NCBI GenBank assembly: GCA_003599755.1
Contig: QZJO01000009.1
Location: forward strand, 150,362 to 214,361
Direction of reading: 5' to 3'
Origin: Candidatus Parcubacteria bacterium
GTDB lineage: Bacteria > Patescibacteriota > Minisyncoccia > Sungbacterales > SURF-37
DNA: 64,000 nucleotides
In this document: positions 2,672 to 19,170 of the stretch, one piece after another
How the letters are laid out: each line of letters starts with the position of its first letter
Numbering within the stretch: the first letter of the stretch is position 1
The notes under the pieces: model-generated
The model's input: only the letters and a program-made list of their open reading frames with translations
The model's database searches: none
What the model was told of the DNA's origin: nothing
Position numbers and translations under genes: made by a program

Positions 2672-4032
2672 GACGCAGTGATGATCCGTTCTATGAATGC
2701 GACCGTGCGCTCGGCACTCTTGCCGTCGCGGAACGGCACGTATTTGGCGAGGCAGCGGCGGCGGCCGTCATGGTCGCGCGCCGGATCGGCCAGATAGGCA
2801 TTCACCTCGGCGGCGAGCGATTCGATATCATCCGCACGCCGCACGCCGCCTGCCTCGACCATGCCGCGATTATATTCATACTCATACACGACGCGTCGGT
2901 GCGACGGGAACCCGATCGTAATAACCGGGCGGTCGAAAATCGCGGCCTCGATGATAATGGTCGAGACGAAATTGATCACCACGTCGGCATACCGAAGCGT
3001 TGCCGAAAGATTCATAAGATCATCTTCTCCCATTTCGATTTTTTGTCCCCCGGCAGAATCGGGCCTGGTTTGCCGGCCGGCCCGTTCGAAATGCAGCCAC
3101 GGCGCATGCAGGCCTGCATACGTATCGAGCGCGTCGTTCGGATGGATACGGATAAGGATATTCGGCTCGCCGGCAATGTGACCAGCGCGGCGCATCTTTA
3201 CAAGCCCTTCCACGAGTTCGCGCCGCGGCGGATAGTTCGACGGCGTGGGCCCGGCAAGCACGATCAGGGACTTTTGTGGATCCAATCCTTTAGACCGTAA
3301 GAATGTTTCGCGAGACGGGAATGCCGGATCTTTCGGATCGGCGAAGTAGTGGTCGAACCGCAGGCAACCGGCAATCGCAAGCTCTTCGTCGCGGTAGCCG
3401 TGCAGCGATTTGGCATCCTCGATCATGACGCTATTCCATACGGCCAAGAAATCCGTTTTGCGCATCATCTTGCCGTTTGAGGTGAGATTGTCGTGATTGA
3501 TATTGATGGCAGCGGTGCGGATTCCCAGCGCTTTGGCCGCGACAATCACCTCGGCCTCGAACGGCGTAAAACCGGGAGTCGCCGTGATAACCAGCACGGG
3601 ATGCTCGCGTTGGAACAGCGGCTTGAGCGTATCGGGTACGCCCGCGAAGCGCATCTCCCAACGGGTCAAGCGATCGGTCGTAAAGAGCCAGCGCGGAAAC
3701 AGAATCCGCGCGCGCATCAATAGTTTCCGGAATGACGCATGCGGCCGCTCGTAGAAATGGCGCATGTACGACAAATGGTCGAACGCCCGGGTGAGCGGCA
3801 CGCGCAAATATTTATCGAAAACATTCCAGAGGCGAGGCCGCGCGAGCGGCACGCGCGCGTAGCTGATGGTGGGGCCGCGCGGATAGCGGTCGCGCTCGGC
3901 CACAGCCGCGTCGATAGCCGGCGTGAGCACGACGACGCGGAAGCGTTCGGCCAAAAGCTCAATGCAGCCGGTGCGCAAGACATCGGAATAGTGGCTGAAT
4001 TGCGCGAGTGCGACAAAAACCGTCGGCATCAT
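2668..4032 (-). CDS. TagF/TagB-family (Glyphos_transf)-like protein, paralog 2
   Basis: Same architecture as paralog 1 (AGCLRFDHY, IVLAGPTPS, TIIIEAAIFDRPVITIGF); ATGA overlap with both neighbours. Confidence 0.5.
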   Translation of the reverse strand: MMPTVFVALAQFSHYSDVLRTGCIELLAERFRVVVLTPAIDAAVAERDRYPRGPTISYARVPLARPRLWNVFDKYLRVPLTRAFDHLSYMRHFYERPHASFRKLLMRARILFPRWLFTTDRLTRWEMRFAGVPDTLKPLFQREHPVLVITATPGFTPFEAEVIVAAKALGIRTAAININHDNLTSNGKMMRKTDFLAVWNSVMIEDAKSLHGYRDEELAIAGCLRFDHYFADPKDPAFPSRETFLRSKGLDPQKSLIVLAGPTPSNYPPRRELVEGLVKMRRAGHIAGEPNILIRIHPNDALDTYAGLHAPWLHFERAGRQTRPDSAGGQKIEMGEDDLMNLSATLRYADVVINFVSTIIIEAAIFDRPVITIGFPSHRRVVYEYEYNRGMVEAGGVRRADDIESLAAEVNAYLADPARDHDGRRRCLAKYVPFRDGKSAERTVAFIERIITAS

Positions 4033-4760
4033 GCAGCCAGATTCGGGAAGCCGCCTTTTTTGAGAATCAACTCGGCAACGTCAAAATCAAAATCGGTATC
4101 AAGATCCACCTGCGGATGGTCCACAAAATACGGCAATACTTTGTCACCGATCACTGATTTTTTCTCGCGGAGCGTCTGGTAGCGGACCACACCGATATTG
4201 GCGTTCGTCGCGTAGACCTTCGGCAAGAGTTGGCGCGGCATATTGAAATGTTCGGGAATGGCGCTTTGCGAAAGGAACGGCACCATGAACGCCCCTTCCA
4301 GCTTCCACATTTTGTGCGGCGTCTTGTCTGGCTCGTGCACCGAGCGAACCGAATCCGCTTCGGGAAACCGCGATAGAAGATCGAGCGCTTCTTCGATTTC
4401 CTTCGGAGCGCGGATAGGTCCGGTCGGCCGCAGATGCACGACGATATCCGGCTTCCATTTCTCATGTGCCTCGAGCCAATCAAGGCAATGCTCGAATACC
4501 GGATAATCCGGCGTCAGGTCCTCGGCCAATTCCGCCGGCCGCAAAAACGGGACTTCGGCGCCATAGCGTTTGGCAACGTCGGCAATCTCCTCCGAATCGG
4601 TCGATACGATTACGCGGTCGATCGCCGGCGAGGCCTTGGCGGCGATGATGCTGTAGGCAATCAGCGGCTTGCCCGCCAAAAGCCGCAGATTCTTTTTCGG
4701 CACGCCCTTGGAACCGCCGCGGGCCGGGATCAGAGCGAGAACGGATGCATTCCTATACAT
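4029..4760 (-). CDS. Acylneuraminate cytidylyltransferase family (CMP-nonulosonate synthetase, NeuA/PseF/LegF-like), copy 1
   Basis: N-terminal LIPARGGSKGVPKKNL motif of CTP_transf_3 family; 243 aa. Confidence 0.8.
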   Translation of the reverse strand: MYRNASVLALIPARGGSKGVPKKNLRLLAGKPLIAYSIIAAKASPAIDRVIVSTDSEEIADVAKRYGAEVPFLRPAELAEDLTPDYPVFEHCLDWLEAHEKWKPDIVVHLRPTGPIRAPKEIEEALDLLSRFPEADSVRSVHEPDKTPHKMWKLEGAFMVPFLSQSAIPEHFNMPRQLLPKVYATNANIGVVRYQTLREKKSVIGDKVLPYFVDHPQVDLDTDFDFDVAELILKKGGFPNLAA

Positions 4761-4916
4761 ACCCGGTAGTAGAATTTCAAATATAATGACGTTTTCCCTT
4801 GCTATCCCTCTTGAATCTTTTCGAGATTACCTGGCATGCAAAATGGCCAGTCGGCCCAATTGAAATTTCACTACCGGGCATACATAAAACCTATACTGTT
4901 TACTACCAGAATGGAA

Positions 4917-4945
4917 CGGGGCGGGTTGCAGAGAACCCGCCCCGG
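4917..4945 (-). terminator. Candidate intrinsic terminator after GT-B gene (11-bp stem CGGGGCGGGTT/AACCCGCCCCG)
   Basis: Perfect inverted repeat 3 nt downstream of the stop at 4948, followed on the minus strand by UUCCAUUCU; lies in an AT-richer 187-nt gap that also has a TATATT element upstream of the NeuA-like start. Confidence 0.45.
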
Positions 4946-4947
4946 TG

Positions 4948-6150
4948 CTAACTACCTCCCCTTCTCTTCTCGACGGGAATCATCCCGACCGATGCATGAC
5001 CGGCACTATTGGCGATGATGGCGGCGGCGTACCGGTTTCCGTCCAACATCCCGAAGCGCCGCCGCAACTCTTCATTGCGGGCCCGAATGCCCGGCCGCAA
5101 TGCATCGCTGTCGGAGATCAGCTCTTGAAGGGACTCGCCGCGCCATACGATGCCAAGACCCAAGACCTCGATGCAGCGGTTGTTGTAGAGGATCTCCGGA
5201 TCATCAGCCGGGTCGAAGTCGGGCACCACGAGCGGCGTACCCGAGAGCTGCGACAACCACACCGACCCCCAGCCGGCCCGCGCGAATTGGAACAGGATCG
5301 CCGGATTCGGCACCACATGGGGCAGCATACGCTCGCCCCCGGGCACCGCGTCGGGATCGTTGGTATACAGATGCATGCCGAGCGCCTTGGCTTCCTGAAA
5401 GAGGCGCTCGAGCCCGGGAATCCCGGTTACGGTCACGAAGATACCGACATCGAGCGGGTCGTCGTTAGGCGCCGGCGGCGTGATCGTCGGCGGGATCGCG
5501 CGCTCCGTTCGATACCGGCGCATGCGGCCCTCCAGATACGAGAACGTGCCCGGCTCGGCGAGGCCAACGAACTTGGCCTTTTCTTCCAGAACGCGGAGCA
5601 TCGGGATCGCTTCGCGCACGAGATTGCGGTCGACCTTGACCATCTCGGATGATTCCCCGAGCACGTGCTCGAGAATCTCGGAGATATGAGCGAACGTGAC
5701 GTCGTAGCGCGGCGAGATGCCGAAGTCGACCCGCGGCGAACGAGCAAGCTGCAAGACGATGTCGCTTCCCGGCACGGCGTTCGATTCGCCGGACAGGTTC
5801 TGGACCGCGAGCTGGCCAGCAAGATACATCTGCGCATCCCGGCTCGCATCGGCGCCTTCGGTCACGAAGCTCTTGAGCGCGGTCTCGTAGTCGCTCTCAC
5901 CGTAGAACACCCGCTTCAGGATGGCGCCCAGCGTCGCATCCAGGAGGATCTCGCCCGGATGCTTTATGTCGTGCTGCGCGAATTCTTCGAGCATGACCCG
6001 CCTCTGGTCTTCGCCGTACACCCAGGGGACGATGATTCCGAGGCGCTCTTGGCGCCGGCCTTCCCGCGCGGCATTGAGCGCCAGCGCGAGTTCCACGGTT
6101 CGGAGGTACGGCCCCCGCCCGTAGGCGAAATTTACAACTGCGTAGCGCAT
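4948..6150 (-). CDS. GT-B fold glycosyltransferase/UDP-sugar hydrolase (MurG/PseG-like C-terminal signature)
   Basis: C-terminal ARAGWGSVWLSQLSGTPLVVPDF...DDPEILYNNRCIEVLGLGIV resembles the GT1/GT28 nucleotide-sugar binding motif; sits between NeuA-like and NeuB-like genes. Confidence 0.4.
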   Translation of the reverse strand: MRYAVVNFAYGRGPYLRTVELALALNAAREGRRQERLGIIVPWVYGEDQRRVMLEEFAQHDIKHPGEILLDATLGAILKRVFYGESDYETALKSFVTEGADASRDAQMYLAGQLAVQNLSGESNAVPGSDIVLQLARSPRVDFGISPRYDVTFAHISEILEHVLGESSEMVKVDRNLVREAIPMLRVLEEKAKFVGLAEPGTFSYLEGRMRRYRTERAIPPTITPPAPNDDPLDVGIFVTVTGIPGLERLFQEAKALGMHLYTNDPDAVPGGERMLPHVVPNPAILFQFARAGWGSVWLSQLSGTPLVVPDFDPADDPEILYNNRCIEVLGLGIVWRGESLQELISDSDALRPGIRARNEELRRRFGMLDGNRYAAAIIANSAGHASVGMIPVEKRRGGS

Positions 6151-6228
6151 GGCTGCTCCTTTCGACGCGTCAGTGAACTACCCGGATCAGCAATATCACA
6201 AATATACCGCCGACTCAAGCGCATCGAA

Positions 6229-7200
6229 TTATGCCGCGAGCGAGCGCTCGTCCCAATTTTGAACCCATTCTCCGCCTATATTACTGGCGAAGCGGCCGCG
6301 GTAATAGTCGCGGTTCAGCATCTCGGTATGCGTCATGTCGCGCGTCGCCGAACCGAGCATCACGCGCCAATCCGGAATTTCGCGTTCCAGCAGCGTCATG
6401 CGTTCCTCGCGCGACCGCTTGGCAAAATCCGCGAGCTCGCGCAATTGATCGGGATTGATGGATACCGGGCCATCCTTGGTAGCATCGGCCGGAAGAATCG
6501 TGAAATGCCGCTCGATATAATCGGCGCCCAGGGCCAACGCCGCCTTTGCCGCTTTGATCCCGTCGCGGGCGACGAGCGTATGGTCGGACCAGCCGACTTC
6601 GGGCGCGAATTGGCGGAGCCAATCCATGCGCGCCAAATTCGACATGGCAAGCGTATTCGGATAGCTCGTCACGCAATGGAGCATCGCATAGGGCTTGCCG
6701 GACGCCTTCAAGATTTCCGATGCCTTGGCGATCTCGTCATCGAGCGTCGCGCCGGTCGAGACGACCAAGCGGTCAAACGATCCGGTAAGATCCCGCAGCA
6801 TGGGAAAGCTCGCGCAGTCGTAGCTCGCGACCTTCACCAATTTCTCCTTCCACGGCAACGACGCCGCGAATGGGATGCGCTTCTTCGCGAACACGGTCAT
6901 CATCGGCGCCACGCCCGCCCGATGCGCTTCTTCGATGAAAAAATGATAGTCGTCTTCGGCCAAATCCAGCGACGCAAGCCGCGCCTTCTCCGGCTCGAAC
7001 GGACGCTGGATGGCTTTACGCACGCCGTTGGATTCCACGACGCCGGTTTCAAACCGCTCGCGGGGATGCAGATCTTCGGAAAAAATAATCTGGCCCTTCA
7101 CAATATCCGCGCCGGCCTCGGCCGCGCGCTGAATCATATCGCGAAGGACCCGGCGGTCCCCTTTGTGGTTCTGGCAAACCTCGGCGATTAGTTTGGCCAT
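6229..7200 (-). CDS. N-acetylneuraminate synthase family (NeuB/PseI/LegI-like), copy 1; no obvious C-terminal SAF domain
   Basis: N-terminal IAEVCQNHKGD (NeuB IAEIGxNHNGD motif), TIM-barrel-like length 323 aa. Confidence 0.75.
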   Translation of the reverse strand: MAKLIAEVCQNHKGDRRVLRDMIQRAAEAGADIVKGQIIFSEDLHPRERFETGVVESNGVRKAIQRPFEPEKARLASLDLAEDDYHFFIEEAHRAGVAPMMTVFAKKRIPFAASLPWKEKLVKVASYDCASFPMLRDLTGSFDRLVVSTGATLDDEIAKASEILKASGKPYAMLHCVTSYPNTLAMSNLARMDWLRQFAPEVGWSDHTLVARDGIKAAKAALALGADYIERHFTILPADATKDGPVSINPDQLRELADFAKRSREERMTLLEREIPDWRVMLGSATRDMTHTEMLNRDYYRGRFASNIGGEWVQNWDERSLAA

Positions 7201-7270
7201 GGAGGCTGAGAGTAGATACGCTTATATGACCCCAACGTAGCACACTTCGTTTCCGCGGAAATCATGCTAA

Positions 7271-7300: not shown

Positions 7301-7322
7301 TCCGCCGTGATGCAGAAAACGC

Positions 7323-8487: not shown

Positions 8488-9066
8488 TCAGGCGCGTGAT
8501 GGTTTTTCAAAAATGAATTCGATCTCGTCGAACCCGCCGACCCAATAACACCAGAGGCGGCTGGCAAGCGCCGGCGCGGCATTCGCGAATGCCGAAACCA
8601 CGGCATTGACGGCGCGCGCGGCCGCGATGCGGACCGCGCCGTACCCCATGTGCGGTAAGAGATGGAAATGGGCAATGTAGCTCAGGCGCATGCGCCGCAG
8701 GAGAAATTCGGTGCCGGTATACCCGGACTTCGTGAACGCAGCATTGAAATATAACGGAAACGTCACGTCGAATCCGTGCGCGTGCTCGGCATGCGTAAAT
8801 CCACGGCTAAAGTGCGGCACTTTGACATGCAGCACGCCGCCGGGCCGGAGAATACGATTGAGCTCGGCCATCACCGCAAACGGCCGATCCAGATGCTCGA
8901 GAACGTGGAATGCCTCGATCCGGTCGAACGACCGGTCCGGAAACGGATACGGCAGGACGTTCAGATCGTGCACCACGTCGGGATGCACGCCGGCCTGCCA
9001 ATCCACGTTGACGTAGCCGTCTTTGCGGTCTTCGCCGCAGCCGAGGTTGAGTTGTTTCAGTTCCAT
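8488..9066 (-). CDS. Class I SAM-dependent methyltransferase (Methyltransf_11-like)
   Basis: LNLGCGEDRKDGYVNVD motif I and ILRPGGVLHVKVP motif. Confidence 0.7.
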   Translation of the reverse strand: MELKQLNLGCGEDRKDGYVNVDWQAGVHPDVVHDLNVLPYPFPDRSFDRIEAFHVLEHLDRPFAVMAELNRILRPGGVLHVKVPHFSRGFTHAEHAHGFDVTFPLYFNAAFTKSGYTGTEFLLRRMRLSYIAHFHLLPHMGYGAVRIAAARAVNAVVSAFANAAPALASRLWCYWVGGFDEIEFIFEKPSRA

Positions 9067-11024: not shown

Positions 11025-12905
11025 CTATCGCCCCCTCCCGAGCCACCGCCGATGCCATAGCAAGAACACCATCAACGTCCAAAGCTGCTTGCGGTTGTCC
11101 CGCCGGCGGGCGCGATGGTCATCGAGCAGCCGCTGGACTTCAGCCGCGTCGAACAGGCCGACGGACGCAACCGAGCGAGGCGACAAAAGATCCGTCGCAA
11201 ATTCTCGAAGTTCGCCGTTCAGCCAGCGCGTCAACGGGATGCCGAAACCCTTTTTCGGCCGATCCGCGATGCCTGCCGGCAGTCGGGACCGCATGAGCGC
11301 CTTCAAAATGTATTTGGTCGTAAGGCCCCGGCATTTCCAATGGTACGGCAGCCGGTGCGCAAACTCCACGACGCGGTAATCGAGAAACGGCGCGCGCACT
11401 TCAAGGGCTGAACGCATGCTCGCGCGATCCACTTTCACGAGCACGCCATCCATCAGATACGCGCGCAGATATTCATACAGCACTCGCTGCATCGGGTCGG
11501 CATGCGCAAGCTCGGCGCGCCAGCGGTCCACGTCGTCGAATTCGTTTTCGGCCGCGAGCGCGCGCCACGCATCCGGCCGGAACAGGCGCGCGCGCTCGTC
11601 GCGATCGAACGCGGCAAGCCACCGCGCGTGACGATAGCGTTCCGGTCCGCGAAGCCCGCGCAGAAATCGCGTCGCCTTGAATCCGAAGCTGAAATTGGTG
11701 TCGCGCACCGGCAGGCGCGACACCCAGGACTCGGCTAATCCGCGCACCGCAGCGGGCAGCCGGCGTACGAACGCCGCGAGTCGTTCCGCGGGGAACGTCG
11801 GATAGCCGGCGAAAAGTTCGTCGCTGCCGTCGCCGCCGAGCGCGACGGTCACGCGGCGGCGGGCAAACTTCGCGAGCAAAGCGCTGGGCAACAGCGACGC
11901 GTCGGCCAACGGCTCATCGGCAAGATCGGCAATTTCCGGCACAAGCTTCAGTACGTCGCCGGCAACGAACGCCGTCTCATGGTGCGTGGTTCCGAGATAT
12001 TCGGCTACGCGCCGCGCATACGGCGCCTCGTCAAAACTCTCCTCGTGGAAGGAGATCGAAAACGTCTCGACCGGCGTACGACTCGCCTGGACCGCGTAGT
12101 AGGCCACGGTCGAGCTGTCCAGGCCTCCGGAGAGCAGCACGCCGACCGGCACGTCGGCCGCGAGGCGCGGAGTCACGCTTGCCGCGAGCAAACGATCGAG
12201 CTCGACCGTCGCATGCGCGAGGCCGATCGGCTCGGCCGGCGCATCCGGAAGGCGCCAATACGCGCCGGTGCGCTTCACGCCGTCCTTCCAGACCAGATAT
12301 GATGCCGGCGACAACTTTTGGATATGCTTGAAGATCGTCCGCGGGGCGGGAACGTATTCGTATGCGAGATACTTGTTGAGCGCGACCAGATCCAATTCGC
12401 GCGTCACCGCCGGATGCGCTACGAGCGCTTTCAATTCGGAACCGAATACCAGCGTATTGCCGAACGCGCCCCAGAAAAGCGGCTTTTTGCCGAAGCGATC
12501 GCGCGCGAGCGTAAGTTCGCCGGTCTTGGTGTCGAAGAGCGCGAGTGCGAACATGCCATTCAGCCGGGCGAATGCGCCGGTGCCGAATTCGTCCCAGAGC
12601 GCCAGAATGACCTCGGTGTCTGATTCCGAACGGAATGTTCGCCCGCGCGCGGCAAGTTCGGCGCGCAGTTCCCGGAAATTATAGATTTCGCCGTTAAACG
12701 TGATCCAAACCGTCCGGTCGGCGTTCGGCATGGGTTGGTGTCCGGCCGGGCTCAGGTCGAAAATCGCGAGGCGCGCGTGCGCAAGCCCCGCGCCCTCTCC
12801 CGTCCAAATACCGCCGCCGTCCGGTCCGCGGTACCGAATGGCGCCGATCATTTGTTCCAGATCATCCCGCCCGCCCGCACCGACGAATCCCGCGATGCCG
12901 CACAT
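11025..12905 (-). CDS. Asparagine synthetase (glutamine-hydrolysing) family amidotransferase, AsnB/WbpS/PseA-like
   Basis: Start at MCGIAGF (N-terminal nucleophile Cys2), RGPDGGG, SGGLDSS PP-loop motif; the upstream in-frame 56-codon extension is judged non-coding. Confidence 0.8.
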   Translation of the reverse strand: MCGIAGFVGAGGRDDLEQMIGAIRYRGPDGGGIWTGEGAGLAHARLAIFDLSPAGHQPMPNADRTVWITFNGEIYNFRELRAELAARGRTFRSESDTEVILALWDEFGTGAFARLNGMFALALFDTKTGELTLARDRFGKKPLFWGAFGNTLVFGSELKALVAHPAVTRELDLVALNKYLAYEYVPAPRTIFKHIQKLSPASYLVWKDGVKRTGAYWRLPDAPAEPIGLAHATVELDRLLAASVTPRLAADVPVGVLLSGGLDSSTVAYYAVQASRTPVETFSISFHEESFDEAPYARRVAEYLGTTHHETAFVAGDVLKLVPEIADLADEPLADASLLPSALLAKFARRRVTVALGGDGSDELFAGYPTFPAERLAAFVRRLPAAVRGLAESWVSRLPVRDTNFSFGFKATRFLRGLRGPERYRHARWLAAFDRDERARLFRPDAWRALAAENEFDDVDRWRAELAHADPMQRVLYEYLRAYLMDGVLVKVDRASMRSALEVRAPFLDYRVVEFAHRLPYHWKCRGLTTKYILKALMRSRLPAGIADRPKKGFGIPLTRWLNGELREFATDLLSPRSVASVGLFDAAEVQRLLDDHRARRRDNRKQLWTLMVFLLWHRRWLGRGR

Positions 12906-12909
12906 GGCA

Positions 12910-13880: not shown

Positions 13881-14942
13881 TTAGTGCACGTGGGACTCCA
13901 GAATTTGCTCGTCGGCTTCGATCATGACGCGGGCGGTCTTTCCGACGATTCGGTCGGCCATCGCCGGCGCCAATCCGCCTTTGCCCGGCCGTTTGAACGC
14001 GATCATATCCCGCGTAATAGCCATACCCGCCGCGATATCCCTGCGCGCCACGATAGCCTGGCTCGCCCAGTTGCGGCCGGTCTCGAGTCGCCGCAGCCGC
14101 TCTGCATCCGGCACCGGCCGCAAAGCCGCTTCCACATCGCGGATCTGGCGCACCATGAGCTTGAACTCCGCGGGCAAAAGCGCCCCCGGGTTATCGAGCG
14201 AACGCGGATCGTCCTTATCAAAGGTAAGGTGTTTTTCGACGACGCATGCGCCGAGCGCCACGGCAGCAAGGACAACCTGCCAGCCCACCGAATGATCCGA
14301 GATGCCGACCGGCAGGCCCGTCAATTCGCCGATGCGCCGCATCCGCGTAAGGTCGATTGCATCGTACGGCGTGGGATACAGCGTCGTACAATGCAGCGCG
14401 ATCATCGGCCCCGCGCCCGCCTGGCTGAGTGTGTCGATCGCGCGCACGACCTCGTCATCCGACTGTAAGCCGAACGATATCATGATGGGCTTTTTCGCCG
14501 CGCCGACCCGCTTGAGAAAATCTATGTTGCCCGCCTCCCCGGACCCGATCTTCAGAAACGGCGGATCGAATTCGCGGAGCAAAAGATCCAAACTCTCTTC
14601 CTCATGCGCCGTTGCGAAAAACGGGTAGCCCGCCGTGCGCGCGTAACGCGCGAGATCGGCGAGCGCCTCGAGTGATAGTTCCTTGTATTTCACGCGTTCG
14701 AACCAATCGAAGCCAAGCTCCGGCGCAAGGCGCTTGGCGACTTTCCTGCTGATTAATGCCTCGGTGTTCGTCACCTGAAACTTCACGATATCCGCACGCG
14801 CGGCCGCTGCGGCATCTACCTGGCGTTTGGCGAGTTCCAGATCTCCATAATTGGTAACGCCGCCTTCGCAAATAACGAAAACGGGTTGGCCGGGGCTGAT
14901 AATCCGACTGCCGGCGCGAAATGGCGGCTGGGATTGATTCAT
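13881..14942 (-). CDS. N-acetylneuraminate synthase family (NeuB/LegI/PseI-like) with C-terminal SAF domain, copy 2
   Basis: VFVICEGGVTNYGD motif, SAF-like C-terminus (IVARRDIAAGMAI...); start chosen at the ATG giving ATGA overlap with the upstream gene (alternative ATG at 14963). Confidence 0.8.
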   Translation of the reverse strand: MNQSQPPFRAGSRIISPGQPVFVICEGGVTNYGDLELAKRQVDAAAAARADIVKFQVTNTEALISRKVAKRLAPELGFDWFERVKYKELSLEALADLARYARTAGYPFFATAHEEESLDLLLREFDPPFLKIGSGEAGNIDFLKRVGAAKKPIMISFGLQSDDEVVRAIDTLSQAGAGPMIALHCTTLYPTPYDAIDLTRMRRIGELTGLPVGISDHSVGWQVVLAAVALGACVVEKHLTFDKDDPRSLDNPGALLPAEFKLMVRQIRDVEAALRPVPDAERLRRLETGRNWASQAIVARRDIAAGMAITRDMIAFKRPGKGGLAPAMADRIVGKTARVMIEADEQILESHVH

Positions 14943-15901
14943 AGCGGATGTCGGCGGCACCATTGCACGGTAAGCTCGGCGATATGAAGCATCGATTTTT
15001 CCGTGGCTTCTCTCGTAGCGCCGCCCAGATGCGGGACGATAATCATATTCTCATGAGTCCGGGCATAGTCAACCAGCGGATGCGTTTTGACGTGCGCGCC
15101 ATCGGGCGTCTCGCCGGCCAGCGTATCCACTGCCGCACCGGCAATGCGCTTGGCCTTGAGTGCAGCCAAGAGCGCGGATTCGTCCGCGATCTCGCCCCGC
15201 GCGGTATTGATGAACACTGCCGTCGGTTTCATCAGGCGGAAATGCCGGGCACCGAGCATACCGGCAGTTCTATCGCTGTACACGCAATGCACCGAAACGA
15301 CATCGGCGGCGCGCAACAGCGCGTTAAGCCCAGCGCGGCGCGCGCCGCCGCGAGCCATTGCGCTTGCCGAAACATACGGATCATAGGCGATCACGCGCAT
15401 GCCGAACGCGCGCGCATAGCGCGCGACATACGAACCGAGCCGCCCGAAGCCGATGACGCCGAAGGTCTTGCCGGCGAGCTCATGGCCACCGTACCGGCGC
15501 CGTTCCCAGCGCCCCGCCTCCAGCGAGCGCATGGCCCAGGGAATATTGCGCACGAGCGCGAGTACGAGCGCGAACGTCTCTTCGGCCGTGGACGGAATTT
15601 GGCGCAATACCGGGGAGTCGCCTTTGATATGCACGACAGCGATCCCCCGCCGCGCGGTTTCAGCGCGGTCGATGTGCCGCAGCTGTGTGGTGCGCGAGGC
15701 GACAAGCTCGAGGCGCGGCGCGCGATCCAGCACGGCTTTGGTGAAATTCACCTCCAGCCCTGCGACCACGACATGCGCGCGCGGCAAATTTTTAAAAAAC
15801 ACCGAGCGGCTGCCGAACGGAATAACGCGGCCGACGCGCGCCAGCATACGCATTGCCTGCGGGCTGAATTCCCGTTCTGCGATAAGGATAACGCGCTTCA
15901 T
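14939..15901 (-). CDS. D-isomer-specific 2-hydroxyacid dehydrogenase (NAD-binding; glycerate/phosphoglycerate dehydrogenase-like)
   Basis: GVIGFGRLGSYVARYARAFGMRV Rossmann motif; FINTARGEIADESAL; catalytic H in VPHLGG. Confidence 0.75.
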   Translation of the reverse strand: MKRVILIAEREFSPQAMRMLARVGRVIPFGSRSVFFKNLPRAHVVVAGLEVNFTKAVLDRAPRLELVASRTTQLRHIDRAETARRGIAVVHIKGDSPVLRQIPSTAEETFALVLALVRNIPWAMRSLEAGRWERRRYGGHELAGKTFGVIGFGRLGSYVARYARAFGMRVIAYDPYVSASAMARGGARRAGLNALLRAADVVSVHCVYSDRTAGMLGARHFRLMKPTAVFINTARGEIADESALLAALKAKRIAGAAVDTLAGETPDGAHVKTHPLVDYARTHENMIIVPHLGGATREATEKSMLHIAELTVQWCRRHPL

Positions 15902-16629
15902 ACGAGCCCTGCCCGAATTATGCATTCGGCGAGCGCCAAGTCGTTCGGCGTATTAATATCGAACGCGCCGAGCTCATCGATACCGAGACCGACGCGCCGA
16001 CCGACTTCAAGGCCGTGTTCTCGGAAAAATGCGTCGCGCCTGAACCAGTAGCAGTTGCCGAACGCATAGCGCCTGGGGTCCGATTGGCGCGTCGGATGGG
16101 CATAATGCATTTCGGGCTGATCGAATTCCAAAAATCCCTTATCAGTCATGCGGCGCACATGATAGGGATGGAAAATGCGCGGCACCTCGATACAGGTAAT
16201 GCCCGAATCGGCGCCCTTGGTCGTTACGAGTTCGAATAGCCGATCGATATGGTCCGACCGGATGAACGGTTCCGTGGGCTGAGCGAGCAACACGTATTCG
16301 GGTGCGTAGTGCTCATGCTCTTCAAGCCACCGGAGCGCATGATCCACGACGGGAATCATCGGCGTAGAATCCTCGGCCAATGCGGCAGGACGCACATACG
16401 GCGTCTCGGCGCCGTATTGGCGCGCAATCGCGGCGATCTCCTCGTTATCGGTATCGACGATCACCCGCCGTACTGAGTGCGCATGGTGTATTGCCGCCAA
16501 AACATACGCAAGCAACGGTTTACCGGCGAGGGGATGAATATTCTTTTTCGGAATCATTTTCGATCCCCCGCGTGCGGGAATGATCGCCAACGTTTCCTGC
16601 GGCTCGTCTCTGGTCACAGTCATGGTCAT
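15898..16629 (-). CDS. Acylneuraminate cytidylyltransferase family (CMP-nonulosonate synthetase), copy 2
   Basis: IIPARGGSKMIPKKNI motif; 243 aa. Confidence 0.8.
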   Translation of the reverse strand: MTMTVTRDEPQETLAIIPARGGSKMIPKKNIHPLAGKPLLAYVLAAIHHAHSVRRVIVDTDNEEIAAIARQYGAETPYVRPAALAEDSTPMIPVVDHALRWLEEHEHYAPEYVLLAQPTEPFIRSDHIDRLFELVTTKGADSGITCIEVPRIFHPYHVRRMTDKGFLEFDQPEMHYAHPTRQSDPRRYAFGNCYWFRRDAFFREHGLEVGRRVGLGIDELGAFDINTPNDLALAECIIRAGLV

Positions 16630-16640
16630 ACCGGAATCCT

Positions 16641-16689
16641 AAAGAAAACGGGGGTCGTCGTGAAGCGCTCTGCTCCCTCGACGACCCCC
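16641..16689 (-). terminator. Candidate intrinsic terminator after SQD1-like gene
   Basis: 11-bp perfect stem GGGGGTCGTCG/CGACGACCCCC (16650-16689) followed on the minus strand by GUUUUCUUU. Confidence 0.5.
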
Positions 16690-16695
16690 TCGAAC

Positions 16696-17883
16696 CTATA
16701 GCGATCGCGTCTGGCGCCACTGCACCGTCGGCATGATCGCCTCGCGGTTGATGGCTTCCTTGGCTTCGCTCACCCGCCGCAGGAGCGACTGCACCAGTTC
16801 ATCCGACAACGCGGTCGGCGTGAGCCCGAGACGCAGGAGGTGGTCGTTGCGCGGGTTGTAGTAGTGGTCTTCTGCTTCGACCCGCGGGTTCTCGATCCGG
16901 CGGATCGTCGCATCCCATCCGAGTATGCGAGCCGCGTCGCAGACGGCCTTGGCAAGCTCGAATACGGAAAAGACCTCGGTGAACTGATTGAACACCCGGA
17001 ATTCGCCTGCCGCGGGAGGGTTCATGGAGGCGAGCTCAACGCACTGAATGGTGTCGCGGATGTTGAGGAACCCGCGCTTCTGATTCCCTCCTCCGTACAC
17101 GGTGATCGGATGGCCGGTCGCCGCCTGCACGACGAAGCGGTTCAGCGCCGTTCCGAACACGTGATCGTAGTGGAAACTCGTCACGAGCCGCTCGTTCATG
17201 TCCGTCTCGGGAGTAGAGATGCCGTAGACGACTCCCTGGTTCAGATCGGTCGCCCGCAACTTCCAGATCCGGCAGGCGAAGGAAATGTTCCCCGAGTCGT
17301 GAACTTTGGACCAGTGGTACCAGGATCCTGCCTGCTTCGGAAACGGAAGGGTGTCCTTCCGCCCCCGATGTTCGATCTCGATGAAGCCCTCCTCGATGTC
17401 GATGTTCGGGGTTCCGTACTCACCCATGGTCCCGAGCTTCACGAGGTGCGCGTGCGGCACCACCTCCTGCATGGCGTACAGCACATTCAGGGTTCCGATG
17501 ACGTTGTTCCGCTGCGTGAACGTCGCGCGGCGATGATCGATCATCGAGTACGGCGCCGACGGCTGTTCGGCGTAGTGGATGATCGTCTCGGGCCGGAACT
17601 CCTGAAAGACGTCCTTCAGAAACTCGAAATCGCCCGCGATGTCGCCCAGAGAGCTTCGGATCCGGAGACCCGAGCACTCGCGCCAGGCGGCGAGTCGCTG
17701 CCGCAACGATGGAATCGGGAACAGCGGCATGGCGCCGACTTCCTCCTCCCACCGCCGCTTGGCCATGTTGTCTACGATCGCGACGTCATGCCCCTTGGCC
17801 GAGAAGTGCAGCGCCGTGGGCCAGCCAAGATACCCATCGCCGCCAAGAACCAGGATCCGGAGTGGGCGGAAGTCGATCCGCAT
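16696..17883 (-). CDS. UDP-sulfoquinovose synthase (SQD1/SqdB)-like extended SDR
   Basis: Diagnostic N-terminus RILVLGGDGYLGWPTALHFSAKGHDVAIVDNMAKRRWEEEVG matches the SQD1 signature (GGDGYCGWATAL...IVDNLVRR); strong SD AAGGAGG 4 nt before the ATG. Confidence 0.7.
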   Translation of the reverse strand: MRIDFRPLRILVLGGDGYLGWPTALHFSAKGHDVAIVDNMAKRRWEEEVGAMPLFPIPSLRQRLAAWRECSGLRIRSSLGDIAGDFEFLKDVFQEFRPETIIHYAEQPSAPYSMIDHRRATFTQRNNVIGTLNVLYAMQEVVPHAHLVKLGTMGEYGTPNIDIEEGFIEIEHRGRKDTLPFPKQAGSWYHWSKVHDSGNISFACRIWKLRATDLNQGVVYGISTPETDMNERLVTSFHYDHVFGTALNRFVVQAATGHPITVYGGGNQKRGFLNIRDTIQCVELASMNPPAAGEFRVFNQFTEVFSVFELAKAVCDAARILGWDATIRRIENPRVEAEDHYYNPRNDHLLRLGLTPTALSDELVQSLLRRVSEAKEAINREAIMPTVQWRQTRSL

Positions 17884-17963
17884 GCTGCCCTCCTTATGGG
17901 GACAAAGTATTGAGGAACTGCTATTCCTCTTATAGCGCTAAGTCCGGTAATTGTCACCATTGA

Positions 17964-18000
17964 CGCAAAAAATATGCTGCCTGGTTCACAGACAGCATAT
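17964..18000 (-). terminator. Intrinsic terminator after NeuC-like gene
   Basis: Stem ATATGCTG/CAGCATAT (17972-18000) followed on the minus strand by UUUUUUGCG (A-run 17965-17971 on the plus strand); starts 3 nt after the stop. Confidence 0.6.
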
Positions 18001-18003
18001 CCA

Positions 18004-19170
18004 CTAGCGCCCGATGACGAGGCGCTTGCGAAAGAGCGTTTCGTTGAGCTCGAGCGCTTTGACGATCTCGAGCACCCTGTTGCTCGCGCGCCCGTCACCG
18101 TAGCGCCGGCCGCAGGAGGCGAGCGCGGCGCGGAAACCCGGATCGCGACCGACGAACTCGATCGCCTCGCGAATAGCCGGTACCGCCAGAGGAACGTCGC
18201 GAACATTCGCTTCCCGATCGCGTCCTTGCTGGCGCGCACCGATGTTCAAAGCGGGGAGACGGAAATACGGCGCCTCTACGAACGCTGCCGACGAATTCCC
18301 GAGCATCACCTCGGCGCCGGCCATCAGACCGAGAAAATCGAAATTCTCGATGTTCGGAAACAGCCGGAACCGCGGATGCCCTCGCCGCTGCTCCAGAACC
18401 TCGATGATTTCGTCATAGCCGGGATCCGAACACGGGTATACGGCGATCCACGTGTGGCCGCTCGCGATCGCCGCCGCACACACCCGTTCCGCGACTTCGC
18501 GGTTCTCCGATGCTCCGAGGAACGTATCGGGATGCAGGATGAGGATACCGTAGCGCTCGCCCGGGCCGATGCCGTAGCGCCCGGCCGCTTCGCCGGGCGG
18601 CGTATACATCTGGCGCAAGATACGATCGATGTAGAGCGAACCGACGGCGTGCACCCGCCATGATTCTTCACCGAGCGCCCGAATGCGGGAGGCCGCTTCT
18701 TCGGTCTCCGCGAAATGCACATGGGCGAGCTTCGTGATCGCGTGGCGCTGGATGTCGTCGATGTTGCCCGACACCTCGCCGCCCTGGGTATGCGTCACCG
18801 CAATACCGAGGGTTACTGCGGCAAGCGCCACGATGAGATGCTCCGCGCGATCGGCATGCACCATGACGATATCGGGCCGCTCGCGTTCGAGCAGGCGCGC
18901 GGCCTCGCTCATGCAGCGGCCGAGGTTTTCTGCCCGCACAAGCGCACTGCCTCCGCGTCCGGCCCCCATCTCGATGCGATGTATGGCGCGCGCGGGAAAA
19001 AGATTTTCTGCCTCCCGTACCGTCGCCCCGAACTCGGCGGCCAGATGCATGTCGCCGAGCAGGATCATGAGCTCGAGATCAGGATCGGCTTCGATCGCAC
19101 GCATGAGCGGTACATACGCGCCGAAGCCGCCGCGCTTTCCCGAAAAGGCGCAAATTTTTTTTGGCTTCAC
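18004..19170 (-). CDS. UDP-N-acetylglucosamine 2-epimerase family (NeuC/LegG/WecB-like)
   Basis: Epimerase_2-like layout, HTQGGEVSG motif; GTG start at 19168-19170 preceded by SD AGGGAGG. Confidence 0.7.
   Translation of the reverse strand: MKPKKICAFSGKRGGFGAYVPLMRAIEADPDLELMILLGDMHLAAEFGATVREAENLFPARAIHRIEMGAGRGGSALVRAENLGRCMSEAARLLERERPDIVMVHADRAEHLIVALAAVTLGIAVTHTQGGEVSGNIDDIQRHAITKLAHVHFAETEEAASRIRALGEESWRVHAVGSLYIDRILRQMYTPPGEAAGRYGIGPGERYGILILHPDTFLGASENREVAERVCAAAIASGHTWIAVYPCSDPGYDEIIEVLEQRRGHPRFRLFPNIENFDFLGLMAGAEVMLGNSSAAFVEAPYFRLPALNIGARQQGRDREANVRDVPLAVPAIREAIEFVGRDPGFRAALASCGRRYGDGRASNRVLEIVKALELNETLFRKRLVIGR

What the first reader, a model, noticed from the sequence alone, without database searches (positions are those of the whole stretch)
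4029..19170. Two paralogous nonulosonic-acid modules in one locus (NeuA+GT-B+NeuB at 4029-7200; NeuB-SAF+NeuA+NeuC-like at 13881-19170)
Two NeuB-family synthases (one with a SAF domain, one without), two CMP-nonulosonate synthetases, a hydrolysing-type UDP-GlcNAc 2-epimerase homolog and a MurG/PseG-like GT-B are present. By analogy with the Pse pathway (PseG, PseI, PseF) and the Leg/Neu pathway (NeuC/LegG, LegI, LegF), this suggests two different 9-carbon sialic-acid-like sugars. Nearby are an AsnB/PseA-like amidotransferase (acetamidino formation), a formyltransferase, a deacetylase and a 2-hydroxyacid dehydrogenase, all able to decorate the amino groups.
Basis: partly seen in the sequence, partly recalled or inferred. 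Interest (0 to 1): 0.7.

Follow-up and report, generated by a model that had tools for sequence, protein, structure and literature searches.

The report
Two unusual sialic-acid-like sugar pathways
A tiny-genome groundwater bacterium (Parcubacteria) carries, in one long cell-surface sugar operon, two unrelated gene sets for sialic-acid-like sugars; neither matches a textbook pathway, and one is always linked to a sulfo-sugar enzyme.

Summary
All the named genes are at the stated coordinates on the minus strand of a Candidatus Parcubacteria contig.

The two copies are not duplicates. The NeuB pair is 29% identical and the NeuA pair 38%.

The Pse versus Leg/Neu reading is only partly right.
- **Module 1 (4029-7200)** is a cassette restricted to Patescibacteria and DPANN archaea. 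Its NeuB lacks the SAF domain and forms its own clade (200/200 bootstraps) apart from the Neu, Leg and Pse references. Its GT-B protein is an orphan family, GT1-like by fold and not PseG. In other genomes that protein sits next to, and once is fused with, a nucleotide-sugar 6-dehydrogenase. No PseB, PseC or PseH is present.
- **Module 2 (13881-19170)** has the order NeuC, SQD1-like, NeuA2, 2-hydroxyacid dehydrogenase, NeuB2. In 13 of 13 related loci with enough flanking DNA, the NeuB2 orthologue travels with the SQD1-like gene. All 14 of those SQD1-likes have Pro in place of an Arg that is essential in Agl3.

The likeliest reading is two different CMP-activated ulosonic acids of unknown structure. 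Module 2's product is probably modified at C9, as a sulfonate or a deoxy group. The chemistry is inferred, not shown.

The parts
6229..7200 (-). NeuB1: SAF-less NeuB-family ulosonate synthase (323 aa), module 1
   Evidence: PF03102 at 147 bits with no SAF domain. TIGR03569 136 bits and PseI 107 bits, both far below cut-off. All catalytic, metal and PEP residues of N. meningitidis NeuB are kept, with E134 changed to D. R314 is absent, and the beta2-alpha2 loop is extended and conserved. It forms its own clade in 200/200 bootstraps. Homologues are 60-76% identical across Patescibacteria.
4948..6150 (-). X400: orphan GT-B enzyme (400 aa), module 1. Putative nucleotide-sugar hydrolase or transferase
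4029..4760 (-). NeuA1: CMP-ulosonate synthetase, module 1
   Evidence: PF02348 at 84.6 bits. Best PDB hits are NeuA enzymes (108 bits), ahead of KdsB (39 bits). It falls in a clade of cytidylyltransferases that sit next to X400/NeuB1.
1313..4032 (-). Two TagB/BFO_1060-like GT-B proteins (1313-2671, 2668-4032) directly downstream of module 1. Candidate ulosonate transferases
   Evidence: NF046086 (BFO_1060 family) at 40 and 55 bits, below cut-off. Glyphos_transf hits. BFO_1060 is aligned in PMC5420450 with Tanf_01245 and TFUB4_00887, the Tannerella forsythia proteins whose knock-outs lose the Pse/Leg derivative. The same gene order is seen in L048 and L049.
18004..19170 (-). NeuC-type hydrolysing UDP-sugar 2-epimerase, module 2
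   Evidence: TIGR03568 at 302.7 bits, above the 235.9 cut-off. Best PDB hit is the hydrolysing GDP/UDP-diNAcBac 2-epimerase 5zlr (165 bits). It belongs to a monophyletic clade of SQD-linked NeuC proteins.
16696..17883 (-). SQD1-like SDR (UDP-sulfoquinovose-synthase homologue) inside module 2
   Evidence: 510 bits to Arabidopsis SQD1. NF041015 scores 479, below the 575 cut-off. The T/Y/K triad and YH motif are kept. EQRSAP is changed to EQPSAP in all 14 NulO-linked homologues, and the equivalent R101A mutation inactivates Agl3 (PMC4388408). An orthologue is present in 13/13 NeuB2-orthologue loci with enough flank.
15898..16629 (-). NeuA2: CMP-ulosonate synthetase, module 2
   Evidence: PF02348 at 79.6 bits. 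Best PDB hit is a NeuA (113.8 bits). It falls in the SQD-linked NeuA clade.
14939..15925 (-). D-2-hydroxyacid dehydrogenase. It overlaps NeuA2 and NeuB2, so translation is probably coupled
   Evidence: 2-Hacid_dh_C at 185 bits. Orthologues of 54-63% identity lie between NeuA2 and NeuB2 in L072, L074, L075, L078, L081, L086, L088-L092 and L095. A related subgroup lies next to X400 in 26 of 52 loci. P0321 may be a fusion with NeuB-SAF.
13881..14963 (-). NeuB2: NeuB+SAF ulosonate synthase (about 353-360 aa), module 2
   Evidence: PF03102 at 200.7 bits plus SAF at 39 bits. TIGR03569 scores 256.5, below 399.65. The R314 equivalent is kept. Family-specific changes at otherwise invariant sites include NH to TN-Y, F112 to H, and conserved R90, R207 and R254. 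It groups with the Leg-context references in 141/200 bootstraps.
19245..21270 (-). Polysaccharide deacetylase (19245-20285) and formyltransferase (20398-21270) upstream of NeuC. Possible N-acyl remodelling, or part of an Arn-like aminopentose route
   Evidence: Pfam hits of 60 and 55 bits. Formyltransferase and deacetylase orthologues (42% identity) precede NeuB-NeuC-NeuA in L026. A Halorussus NeuB/NeuC locus carries similar genes.
21952..24713 (-). Two further TagB/BFO_1060-like proteins (21952-~23310, 23307-24713)
   Evidence: NF046086 at 54.8 and 16.6 bits, plus TIGR04396 and Glyphos_transf weak hits.
11025..12905 (-). AsnB-type glutamine amidotransferase. The true start is probably the MCGIAG motif near 12905
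   Evidence: It passes the asn_synth_AEB equivalog (468 > 267). TIGR03108, the EPS-associated amidotransferase model, scores 558, below 817. The N-terminal Cys is visible in the translation.

Best explanation
The region holds two independent, non-duplicated cassettes for CMP-activated 2-keto-3-deoxy (ulosonic, sialic-acid-like) sugars. They sit inside one ~48-kb minus-strand cell-surface glycan operon of a Candidatus Parcubacteria bacterium. Each cassette follows the usual logic of bacterial nonulosonic acid synthesis. A GT-B enzyme acts on a nucleotide sugar, a NeuB-family enzyme condenses the freed aldose with PEP, and a cytidylyltransferase makes the CMP-sugar. TagB/BFO_1060-like proteins are the candidate transferases.

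Cassette 1 is X400, SAF-less NeuB1 and NeuA1. It is specific to Patescibacteria and DPANN archaea, and its product is not pseudaminic acid. X400 most likely hydrolyses a nucleotide sugar to supply NeuB1. In most relatives that sugar would be the uronic-acid product of an adjacent nucleotide-sugar 6-dehydrogenase, which in one case is fused to X400.

Cassette 2 is NeuC, SQD1-like, NeuA2, 2-hydroxyacid dehydrogenase and NeuB2. It is a conserved, horizontally shared block. The SQD1-like enzyme most likely modifies C6 of the UDP-hexosamine by sulfite addition or 5,6-dehydration. NeuC would then release the sugar, so the product would be a Neu/Leg-type nonulosonic acid altered at C9.

Shown: gene content, fold, clade structure, retained catalytic residues and co-occurrence. 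Inferred: the substrates, the role of X400, and whether the SQD1-like enzyme acts inside the pathway.
For: **Gene and domain identities:**

**Not duplicates:**

**Cassette 1**
- The NeuB1 clade separates in 200/200 bootstraps and keeps a full catalytic set.
- X400 has a GT-B, GT1-like fold.
- The X400 family is tiny, with 266 representatives.
- Across 52 species-level X400 loci, a NeuB gene is present in 42, a NeuA in 42, a long CBS-containing NDP-sugar dehydrogenase in 39, a TagB-like gene in 27, a 2-hydroxyacid dehydrogenase in 26 and a NeuC in only 16. In most loci X400 is therefore the only in-locus candidate to supply a free aldose.
- One protein, P0383, fuses X400 to the dehydrogenase. 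That dehydrogenase passes the nucleotide-sugar dehydrogenase subfamily model and is closest to UDP-ManNAc dehydrogenases.

**Cassette 2**
- 13 of 13 NeuB2-orthologue loci with enough flank carry an SQD1 orthologue, in Patescibacteria and in Gaiellaceae. None of the loci with only distant NeuB relatives does.
- The SQD-linked NeuC and NeuA proteins form their own clades.
- All 14 linked SQD1-likes carry the Arg-to-Pro change at an Agl3-essential residue.
- A PAPS reductase lies beside the SQD1-like gene in L071, L074 and L076, and a TauE-family gene in L071.
- NeuB2 has a remodelled sugar-binding loop with clade-specific conserved Arg residues.

**Precedent:** Pen/Pal 5,6-dehydratases feed Pse synthesis, and SQD1/Agl3 act as 5,6-dehydratases without sulfite (PMC8987622).
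Against: - No product was observed and no enzyme was assayed.
- The window itself lacks the long CBS-dehydrogenase, so the uronic-acid idea for cassette 1 rests on relatives.
- X400's closest folds are true glycosyltransferases rather than hydrolases.
- SQD1 normally uses UDP-glucose, whereas NeuC chemistry normally needs a 2-acetamido sugar. The two steps fit together only if the SQD1-like enzyme takes UDP-GlcNAc.
- Tight co-occurrence could also arise if sulfoquinovose and the nonulosonic acid are simply two residues of one conserved glycan motif.
- The trees are neighbour-joining. They contain one characterised Neu5Ac synthase and one characterised PseI, and the Leg references are assigned only by gene context.
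- The role of the 2-hydroxyacid dehydrogenase is unexplained.
Confidence: 0.55

Rival explanations
1. Module 1 is a pseudaminic acid pathway (PseG, PseI, PseF). Module 2 is a legionaminic or neuraminic acid pathway. The nearby amidotransferase, formyltransferase, deacetylase and dehydrogenase decorate the amino groups.
For: The enzyme families are right at superfamily level: NeuB, CTP_transf_3 and a GT-B fold. A distant X400 family member weakly hits Glyco_tran_28_C, a GT28 glycosyltransferase C-terminal domain. NeuB2 groups with the Leg-context references in 141/200 bootstraps, and NeuC passes its equivalog cut-off.
Against: - NeuB1 lies outside all reference clades (200/200) and scores lower on the PseI model than on the NeuB model.
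- X400 fails the PseG model, which a control passes. hhalign probability is 0.1% and PseG is only the 57th fold match.
- No PseB, PseC, PseH, LegB, LegC or LegH passes a cut-off, and no acetyltransferase is present.
Confidence: 0.06
2. Module 2 makes an ordinary NulO such as Neu5Ac, for which NeuC, NeuB and NeuA suffice. The SQD1-like enzyme independently makes UDP-sulfoquinovose, and sulfoquinovose is a second residue of the same conserved glycan. The genes travel together because the glycan motif is conserved, not because they form one pathway.
For: The SQD1-like protein is about 60% identical to plant SQD1 and keeps the T/Y/K triad and the YH motif. Adjacent PAPS reductase and TauE genes fit real sulfite chemistry. 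Many GT4 glycosyltransferases in the locus could transfer sulfoquinovose. Glycan loci often mix genes for several sugars.
Against: - No sulfoquinovosyl-transferase-like gene is part of the conserved core.
- NeuB2, NeuC and NeuA2 are all divergent, co-evolving clades rather than standard Neu5Ac enzymes.
- All linked SQD1-likes have lost an Arg that is essential in Agl3, which argues for changed substrate handling.
Confidence: 0.3
3. In module 1, X400 is a true glycosyltransferase. It would add the dehydrogenase's uronic acid (ManNAcA-like) to the growing glycan, giving the acceptor onto which a TagB-like enzyme places the ulosonic acid, as in the Tannerella O-glycan. NeuB1 would take its aldose or sugar phosphate from central metabolism.
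For: The best fold matches are GT1 transferases. The fusion with an NDP-sugar dehydrogenase fits donor supply. In Tannerella forsythia the Pse/Leg derivative is attached to ManNAcA by a TagB-like enzyme (PMC5420450). NeuB1's extended basic beta2-alpha2 loop could bind a phosphorylated substrate.
Against: X400 and NeuB1 remain adjacent even where the transferases vary. Only 16 of the 52 X400 loci hold a NeuC-type gene, and no PseG equivalent was identified in the loci examined, so most lack any other source of free aldose. No conserved phosphatase accompanies NeuB1.
Confidence: 0.35

Closest known systems
NeuC/NeuB/NeuA (Neu5Ac) and LegG/LegI/LegF (legionaminic acid) pathways
   Same: Module 2 has a hydrolysing 2-epimerase that passes TIGR03568. 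It has a NeuB+SAF synthase with all catalytic residues and the R314 equivalent, and a CMP-transferase closest to solved NeuA structures.
   Different: - NeuB2 fails the NeuB/LegI equivalog cut-off (256 vs 399.65), which a Leg-context control passes at 449.
- The otherwise invariant NH dyad and F112 are replaced.
- No LegB, LegC or LegH is present.
- An SQD1-like SDR and a 2-hydroxyacid dehydrogenase are fixed members of the block.
Pseudaminic acid pathway (PseB, C, H, G, I, F)
   Same: Module 1 has the three-gene logic of GT-B enzyme, NeuB-family synthase and cytidylyltransferase. PseG is also a GT-B enzyme that uses water as acceptor.
   Different: X400 is not PseG by HMM, by profile-profile comparison or by fold rank. 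NeuB1 is not in the PseI clade and lacks the SAF domain. PseB, PseC and PseH are absent.
UDP-sulfoquinovose synthases SQD1 (plants) and Agl3 (Sulfolobus)
   Same: About 60% identity to SQD1 over the full length, with the TMG...YHxSK active-site motifs kept.
   Different: The score is below the NCBIfam equivalog cut-off (479 < 575). The Arg of EQRSAP (Agl3 R101, essential) is Pro in all 14 NulO-linked homologues. The genomic partners are NeuC, NeuA and NeuB rather than a sulfolipid or N-glycan sulfoquinovosyl-transferase.
Pen/Pal route to CMP-pseudaminic acid in Bacillus thuringiensis
   Same: A nucleotide-sugar 5,6-dehydratase acts at the start of a nonulosonic acid pathway. SQD1/Agl3 show the same 5,6-dehydratase activity when sulfite is absent (PMC8987622).
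   Different: The enzyme subfamily differs (Pen is PseB-like, not SQD1-like), and here the downstream enzymes are NeuC/NeuB types rather than Pse types. Sulfite-supplying genes lie next to the block in three relatives.
Dual nonulosonic acid clusters in Leptospira
   Same: More than one kind of NulO is expressed (PMC3438082, listed; abstract only). That Leptospira carries two NeuB and two NeuA copies in one locus, and that Campylobacter and Tannerella make two different NulOs, is from my own knowledge and was not checked here.
   Different: There the copies fall in the recognised Neu, Leg and Pse clades. Here one copy is a SAF-less clade restricted to CPR and DPANN, and the other is an SQD1-linked clade.
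GT1 and GT28 GT-B glycosyltransferases (YojK, CalG, UGTs, MurG)
   Different: Sequence similarity to GT1/GT28 is negligible. The window protein has no Pfam hit, only 266 library representatives match the family profile, and one distant member weakly hits Glyco_tran_28_C. The N-terminal loop is NFAYGxGPYLR, without the usual catalytic His.

Membership tests
NeuB family (PF03102) nonulosonate synthases | NeuB TIM-barrel domain above the Pfam gathering score | tested here: met
   NeuB1 scores 147.2 bits and NeuB2 200.7 bits against a cut-off of 22.1.
NeuB family (PF03102) nonulosonate synthases | Catalytic Glu residues, two metal-binding His, and PEP-binding Lys/Ser residues of N. meningitidis NeuB | tested here: met
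   E25, K53, Q55, K129, S132, S154, Y186, S213, H215, E234, H236 and D247 are kept in both proteins and in 37-38 of 38 NeuB1 family members. E134 is D in NeuB1. The residue list comes from PMC8208679 and PMC11339185.
NeuB family (PF03102) nonulosonate synthases | C-terminal SAF/antifreeze-like domain supplying Arg314 | tested here: not met
   This applies to NeuB1 only. It has no SAF hit and no residue aligned to R314 in any of 38 family members. NeuB2 meets the feature, with SAF at 39 bits and the motif FKRPG.
N-acetylneuraminate/legionaminate synthase equivalog (TIGR03569) | Whole-protein score above the curated cut-off of 399.65 | tested here: not met
   NeuB1 scores 135.8 and NeuB2 256.5. 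A Leg-context control from Sulfitobacter scores 449.3.
Pseudaminic acid synthase PseI (TIGR03586) | Score above 340.25 and placement in the PseI clade | tested here: not met
   NeuB1 scores 107.2 and NeuB2 179, while a control PseI scores 515.6. NeuB2 groups with Pse references in only 12/200 bootstraps, and NeuB1 never does.
PseG UDP-sugar hydrolase (TIGR03590) | Match to the PseG model, or profile or fold closest to PseG | tested here: not met
Pse pathway as a whole | PseB dehydratase, PseC aminotransferase and PseH acetyltransferase present | tested here: not met
   The only DegT-type protein scores 198 on PseC against a cut-off of 423.5 and scores higher on RfbH. No GNAT or LbH acetyltransferase domain occurs in any ORF tiling positions 300-48700.
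Leg pathway as a whole | LegB, LegC and LegH-type acetyltransferase present | tested here: not met
   LegB (TIGR04180) scores 112 and 102 against 475, and LegC scores 145 against 420. No acetyltransferase is present. A formyltransferase could substitute for it, but this was not tested.
Hydrolysing UDP-GlcNAc 2-epimerase NeuC/LegG (TIGR03568) | Score above the curated cut-off of 235.9 | tested here: met
   The score is 302.7, against 83 for the non-hydrolysing WecB model. The best PDB hit is 5zlr. The actual substrate was not tested.
CMP-nonulosonate synthetases (NeuA/LegF/PseF) | CTP_transf_3 domain, and closer to NeuA than to KdsB | tested here: met
   Both copies score 84.6 and 79.6 bits on PF02348. 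PDB NeuA hits score 108 and 114 bits, against 39 and 34 for KdsB. The PseF equivalog is failed (157 and 140 < 205.7), but a Leg-context control also fails it (167), so that model does not discriminate.
UDP-sulfoquinovose synthase (NF041015; SQD1/Agl3) | Score above 575, with the residues shown essential in Agl3 (H95, R101, M145, Y182, K186) kept | tested here: not met
   The score is 479.3, below 575. H, M, Y and K are kept, but R101 is Pro in the window protein and in all 13 other linked homologues. Similarity to SQD1 is very high (510 bits), so this is a diverged member rather than an unrelated protein.
BFO_1060 family (Tannerella Pse/Leg transferase family, NF046086) | Score above the cut-off of 200 | tested here: not met
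   The four paralogues score 40, 55, 55 and 17 bits. They share the TagB/Glyphos_transf-type region. A transferase role is inferred only.
PseA-type N-acetyl-sugar amidotransferase (acetamidino formation) | ATP-pyrophosphatase-type amidotransferase without the class-II glutaminase domain (from my own knowledge of the family) | tested here: inconclusive
   The window protein has GATase_6/7 domains plus Asn_synthase and passes the asparagine synthase equivalog (468 > 267). None of its 11 NCBIfam hits is a sugar amidotransferase. I did not verify with a control that a PseA model is in the library.

The most novel reading that the evidence does not exclude
Module 2 makes a nonulosonic acid that carries a carbon-bound sulfonate at C9. 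The SQD1-like enzyme would add sulfite to C6 of a UDP-hexosamine, or of UDP-glucose. The dedicated NeuC clade would release the 6-deoxy-6-sulfo sugar. NeuB2, whose pocket holds extra conserved Arg residues, would condense it with PEP to a 9-deoxy-9-sulfo-Neu5Ac-like sugar (expected neutral monoisotopic mass about 373.07 Da, my own arithmetic, not a tool result) or a Kdn-like sugar, and NeuA2 would activate it.

By analogy, module 1 in most relatives would turn a nucleotide-sugar uronic acid into a 9-carboxy 'nonulosaric' acid. Both products would be anionic at C9 and would mimic the 9-phosphate intermediates of the animal pathway.
Probability: 0.25. Interest if true: 0.85.

Novelty: new variant of a known kind. 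Interest (0 to 1): 0.68.

Why it matters
Sialic-acid-like sugars shape how cell surfaces are recognised, and only a few biosynthetic families (Neu, Leg, Pse and their epimers, Kdn) are known. Here two further gene sets appear in Patescibacteria, bacteria with reduced genomes that are thought to live attached to host cells.

- The first set pairs a SAF-less synthase with an orphan GT-B enzyme. It is conserved across many Patescibacteria and reaches DPANN archaea.
- The second set is locked to a sulfoquinovose-synthase homologue and is shared with soil Actinobacteria.

If either makes a new sugar, that would extend the known chemistry of this sugar class. It could also give a surface marker for organisms that cannot yet be grown. 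Both cassettes are three to five genes long and could be expressed in E. coli, so the idea is directly testable.

My full-text searches found no paper that links these organisms to such sugars or that links sulfoquinovose to nonulosonic acids. The searchable library is incomplete.

Tried and rejected
- **Recent duplication:** rejected. Identities are 29% and 38%, and the copies fall in different clades.
- **Module 1 as Pse:** rejected.
- **X400 as a member of a known family:** no Pfam, NCBIfam or PDB sequence hit. Only the fold search was informative.
- **AsnB as a PseA-like acetamidino enzyme:** not supported. It is a full AsnB-type enzyme, which more plausibly amidates a carboxylate or is a true asparagine synthase.
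- **The window's own 431-aa NDP-sugar dehydrogenase as the orthologue of the long CBS-dehydrogenase linked to X400:** rejected. It is only 25% identical and lacks the CBS part.
- **Module 2 of the window as the same second NeuB seen beside NeuB1 in many Patescibacteria (L009, L011, L014, L015):** rejected. Those belong to a different clade.
- **Failed attempts:** a Biopython bootstrap run timed out and was replaced by a numpy version. The SQD1 crystal-structure paper is not held, so the structural role of the lost Arg is unknown to me.
- **Not possible with these tools:** model coordinates are not exposed, so I could not measure whether the clade-specific Arg residues of NeuB2 line the sugar pocket.

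Full report
**Observation**

The window is a ~48-kb run of minus-strand, tightly packed or overlapping genes for surface-glycan synthesis, at about 0.60 GC. It belongs to a 263,839-bp contig annotated Candidatus Parcubacteria bacterium.

- Module 1: a cytidylyltransferase (4029-4760), a 400-aa protein with no family hit (4948-6150) and a NeuB-family protein without SAF (6229-7200).
- Module 2: a NeuB+SAF protein (13881-14963), a second cytidylyltransferase (15898-16629) and a NeuC-type epimerase that passes its equivalog cut-off (18004-19170).

One is a D-2-hydroxyacid dehydrogenase (14939-15925) that overlaps both neighbours. The other is a gene at 16696-17883 that scores 510 bits against Arabidopsis SQD1, the UDP-sulfoquinovose synthase.

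**The copies are not duplicates**

NeuB1 and NeuB2 share 29% identity over 194 residues, and NeuA1 and NeuA2 share 38%.

I built a neighbour-joining tree of the TIM-barrel part. It included N. meningitidis NeuB and C. jejuni PseI, both read from PDB alignments. It also included two PGAP-annotated PseI proteins and four NeuB proteins, two of them from Leg-type gene contexts, fetched, and NeuB homologues from related Patescibacteria and DPANN loci.
- The SAF-less NeuB1 group separates from everything else in 200 of 200 bootstraps.
- NeuB2 joins the Leg-context references in 141 of 200, the Neu reference in 31 and the Pse references in 12.

Both proteins fail the NeuB/LegI and PseI equivalog cut-offs, which control proteins pass.

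**Module 1**

NeuB1 keeps every catalytic, metal-binding and PEP-binding residue of the meningococcal enzyme, with E134 changed to D. It has no SAF domain and so no equivalent of Arg314, the residue that holds the N-acetyl group of ManNAc. It also carries a longer, conserved, basic beta2-alpha2 loop. It is therefore very probably an active PEP-condensing synthase with a different sugar substrate. Its homologues are 60-76% identical across many Patescibacteria lineages.

The 400-aa protein (X400) has no sequence-family hit. It folds with high confidence (pLDDT 91.6) into a GT-B enzyme.
- These rank ahead of MurG (16.8), 2-epimerases (16.5), NeuC (14.4) and PseG (11.9, rank 57).
- Profile comparison with a true PseG gives 0.1% probability.
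- The family is very small: 266 representatives among 1.84 billion proteins.
- In one scan of 185,579 species genomes it appears in 57 loci, almost all Patescibacteria plus a few Woesearchaeota.

Among the 52 of those loci that carry a clustered X400 ORF:
- 42 have a NeuB gene (37 of the ORFs are NeuB1-type);
- 42 have a cytidylyltransferase;
- 39 have a long CBS-containing nucleotide-sugar 6-dehydrogenase;
- 27 have TagB-like proteins;
- 26 have a 2-hydroxyacid dehydrogenase;
- only 16 have a NeuC.

One protein, P0383, fuses X400 to that dehydrogenase. The dehydrogenase is closest to UDP-ManNAc dehydrogenases. The window itself lacks the long dehydrogenase.

Two readings fit these facts. In the first, X400 hydrolyses the nucleotide sugar to feed NeuB1. 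That would parallel NeuC, LegG and PseG, which are all GT-B enzymes. I favour this reading, because most loci hold no other source of free aldose. In the second, X400 is a true transferase that adds a uronic acid, which then receives the ulosonic acid, as in the Tannerella forsythia O-glycan (PMC5420450).

The pseudaminic acid reading is not supported. No PseB, PseC, PseH or any acetyltransferase is present.

**Module 2**

Homologues of NeuB2 at 50-68% identity occur in Patescibacteria and in Gaiellaceae. In a Gaiellaceae contig the order is SDR(392 aa), cytidylyltransferase, 2-hydroxyacid dehydrogenase, NeuB+SAF, the same as in the window. In an Uhrbacteria contig the block also holds NeuC, a PAPS reductase and a TauE-family transporter.

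I then fetched 35 metagenome loci with NeuB2 relatives and labelled their ORFs by BLAST against the window proteins.
- Counting also L070-L072, all 13 loci that hold a NeuB2 orthologue (at least 48% identical) and enough upstream DNA also hold an SQD1 orthologue (49-66% identical).
- Most of these also hold NeuC and NeuA2, and about 60% hold the dehydrogenase.
- None of the loci with only distant NeuB relatives holds an SQD1 orthologue.

The NeuC and NeuA proteins of these loci form their own clades. PAPS reductase genes lie beside the SQD1-like gene in three loci.

All 14 linked SQD1-like proteins read EQPSAP where SQD1 and Agl3 read EQRSAP. Mutating that Arg (R101A) inactivates Agl3.

The NeuB2 family replaces residues that are invariant in all Neu, Leg and Pse references. 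The NH dyad is TN-Y and F112 is His. It also has clade-specific conserved Arg residues, one of them three residues before the sugar-binding Asp.

I infer that the SQD1-like enzyme is a step of this pathway and changes C6 of the UDP-sugar before NeuC acts. The product would then be altered at C9. There are two possible chemistries.
- Sulfite addition. This is supported by the PAPS reductase and TauE neighbours.
- 5,6-dehydration leading to a deoxy sugar. This is supported by the lost Arg, and by the precedents that SQD1/Agl3 act as 5,6-dehydratases without sulfite and that Pen/Pal dehydratases feed Pse synthesis (PMC8987622).

The main rival is that sulfoquinovose and an ordinary nonulosonic acid are two residues of one conserved glycan.

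**Side genes**

- The AsnB gene is a full glutamine-hydrolysing asparagine-synthase type. A PseA-like acetamidino role is not indicated.
- Formyltransferase plus deacetylase beside NeuC/NeuB recurs in L026 and in a Halorussus plasmid. N-acyl remodelling therefore remains possible.
- The same two genes could instead belong to an Arn-like aminopentose route. Its other parts would be the 431-aa dehydrogenase, a UDP-4-keto-pentose-synthase-like SDR, a DegT aminotransferase, an ArnC-like GT2 and a PMT_2 protein.
- Four TagB/BFO_1060-like paralogues are the candidate ulosonate transferases.

**Comparison and novelty**

Two nonulosonic acid gene sets in one organism are not new in themselves; Leptospira is the example I could cite, and I read only the abstract of that paper (PMC3438082). 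SAF-less NeuB homologues in environmental bacteria have also been noted without a known function (PMC8208679).

What appears new is threefold:
- the orphan GT-B partner and its link to a sugar dehydrogenase;
- the restriction of cassette 1 to CPR bacteria and DPANN archaea;
- the obligate link of cassette 2 to an SQD1 homologue.

Full-text searches for Patescibacteria or Parcubacteria together with nonulosonic or sialic acid, and for sulfoquinovose together with nonulosonic acid, found nothing relevant. The library is incomplete.

I rate the finding a new variant of a known kind.

**Limits**

- No chemistry was observed.
- The trees are distance-based, with few characterised references.
- The Leg references are assigned by gene context only.
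- ORFs in related loci were called mechanically.
- Model coordinates could not be inspected.

Noticed in passing
window 16696-17883 (-): A UDP-sulfoquinovose-synthase homologue (510 bits to plant SQD1) in a Parcubacteria genome. It has Pro in place of the Arg that is essential in Agl3, and this change is shared by all 14 homologues that sit beside NeuB/NeuC/NeuA genes.
   Followed up: yes
window 12910-13875, 19245-21270, 27174-30728, 48945-50681: These genes together resemble the Arn (4-amino-4-deoxy-pentose) route: an NDP-sugar dehydrogenase, a UDP-4-keto-pentose/UDP-xylose-synthase-like SDR, a DegT aminotransferase, a formyltransferase, an ArnC-like GT2 (167 bits), a deacetylase and a PMT_2 GT-C protein. 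All are below equivalog cut-offs.
   Followed up: partly
P0383 (985 aa): A single protein fuses the X400 GT-B domain to a CBS pair and a nucleotide-sugar 6-dehydrogenase. This suggests that the two enzymes act on the same nucleotide sugar. I did not check whether it is a gene-calling artefact.
   Followed up: partly
L054, L055, L059, L062, L064 (Woesearchaeota and other archaeal MAGs); L033 (MAG labelled Bdellovibrio): X400 homologues of 24-33% identity occur in DPANN archaea. In L064 the homologue lies with NeuA1- and NeuB1-type genes (54% identical NeuB1). This hints at gene sharing between CPR bacteria and DPANN archaea.
   Followed up: partly
L071 3995-4681 and 6999-7745; L074 4092-4775; L076 2108-2881: PAPS-reductase-like genes, and in L071 a TauE sulfite/sulfonate exporter-family gene, lie directly beside the SQD1-like gene in NeuB2-type blocks. 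None is found in the window.
   Followed up: partly
L071 14338-16215: A 625-aa protein combines NeuB, SAF and an AP_endonuc_2 (xylose-isomerase-like TIM barrel) domain. It sits next to a Gfo/Idh/MocA oxidoreductase and another cytidylyltransferase, and may represent yet another NulO variant in an Uhrbacteria genome.
   Followed up: no
P0321 (429 aa): The C-terminal part of a 2-hydroxyacid dehydrogenase is fused in frame to a NeuB2-type NeuB+SAF protein. In the window the two genes overlap by 25 nt, so this may be a real fusion or a frameshift.
   Followed up: partly
L008 (Halorussus plasmid) and L007 (Azospirillum plasmid): NeuB loci carry adjacent formyltransferases. In Halorussus they also carry NeuC, a PIG-L deacetylase and a polysaccharide deacetylase. 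This suggests an uncharacterised N-formyl nonulosonic acid theme across domains.
   Followed up: no
window 1313-4032 and 21952-24713 (-): Four paralogous TagB/BFO_1060-like proteins lie in two tandem pairs, one pair next to each module. Only 2668-4032 keeps an HP motif (RIHPND), read by eye from the translations.
   Followed up: partly
window 46878-48689 (-): A protein with lamin-tail and PKD domains sits at the end of the glycan operon. It is a possible surface protein and glycosylation target.
   Followed up: no
window 9057-11018 (-), 26138-26968 (-), 40413-42131 (-): Three ORFs inside the operon have no Pfam or NCBIfam hit. The 653-aa one is very hydrophobic and may be a polymerase, ligase or GT-C-like membrane protein.
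   Followed up: no
window 11025-13073, 21195-22265, 21952-23466, 20398-21270: The mechanical ORF starts are too far upstream. Likely true starts are MCGIAG near 12905 for AsnB, MKTIFITSF near 23310 for the third TagB-like gene, and internal Met codons for the methyltransferase and the formyltransferase. With these starts the apparent long gene overlaps disappear.
   Followed up: partly
L053 and L070: These two loci share a 100% identical methyltransferase and overlapping gene content, so they probably come from one Hainich groundwater organism. Together they show the same pairing as the window, with X400 and NeuB1 next to an SQD-linked NeuC/NeuA2/NeuB2 block.
   Followed up: partly
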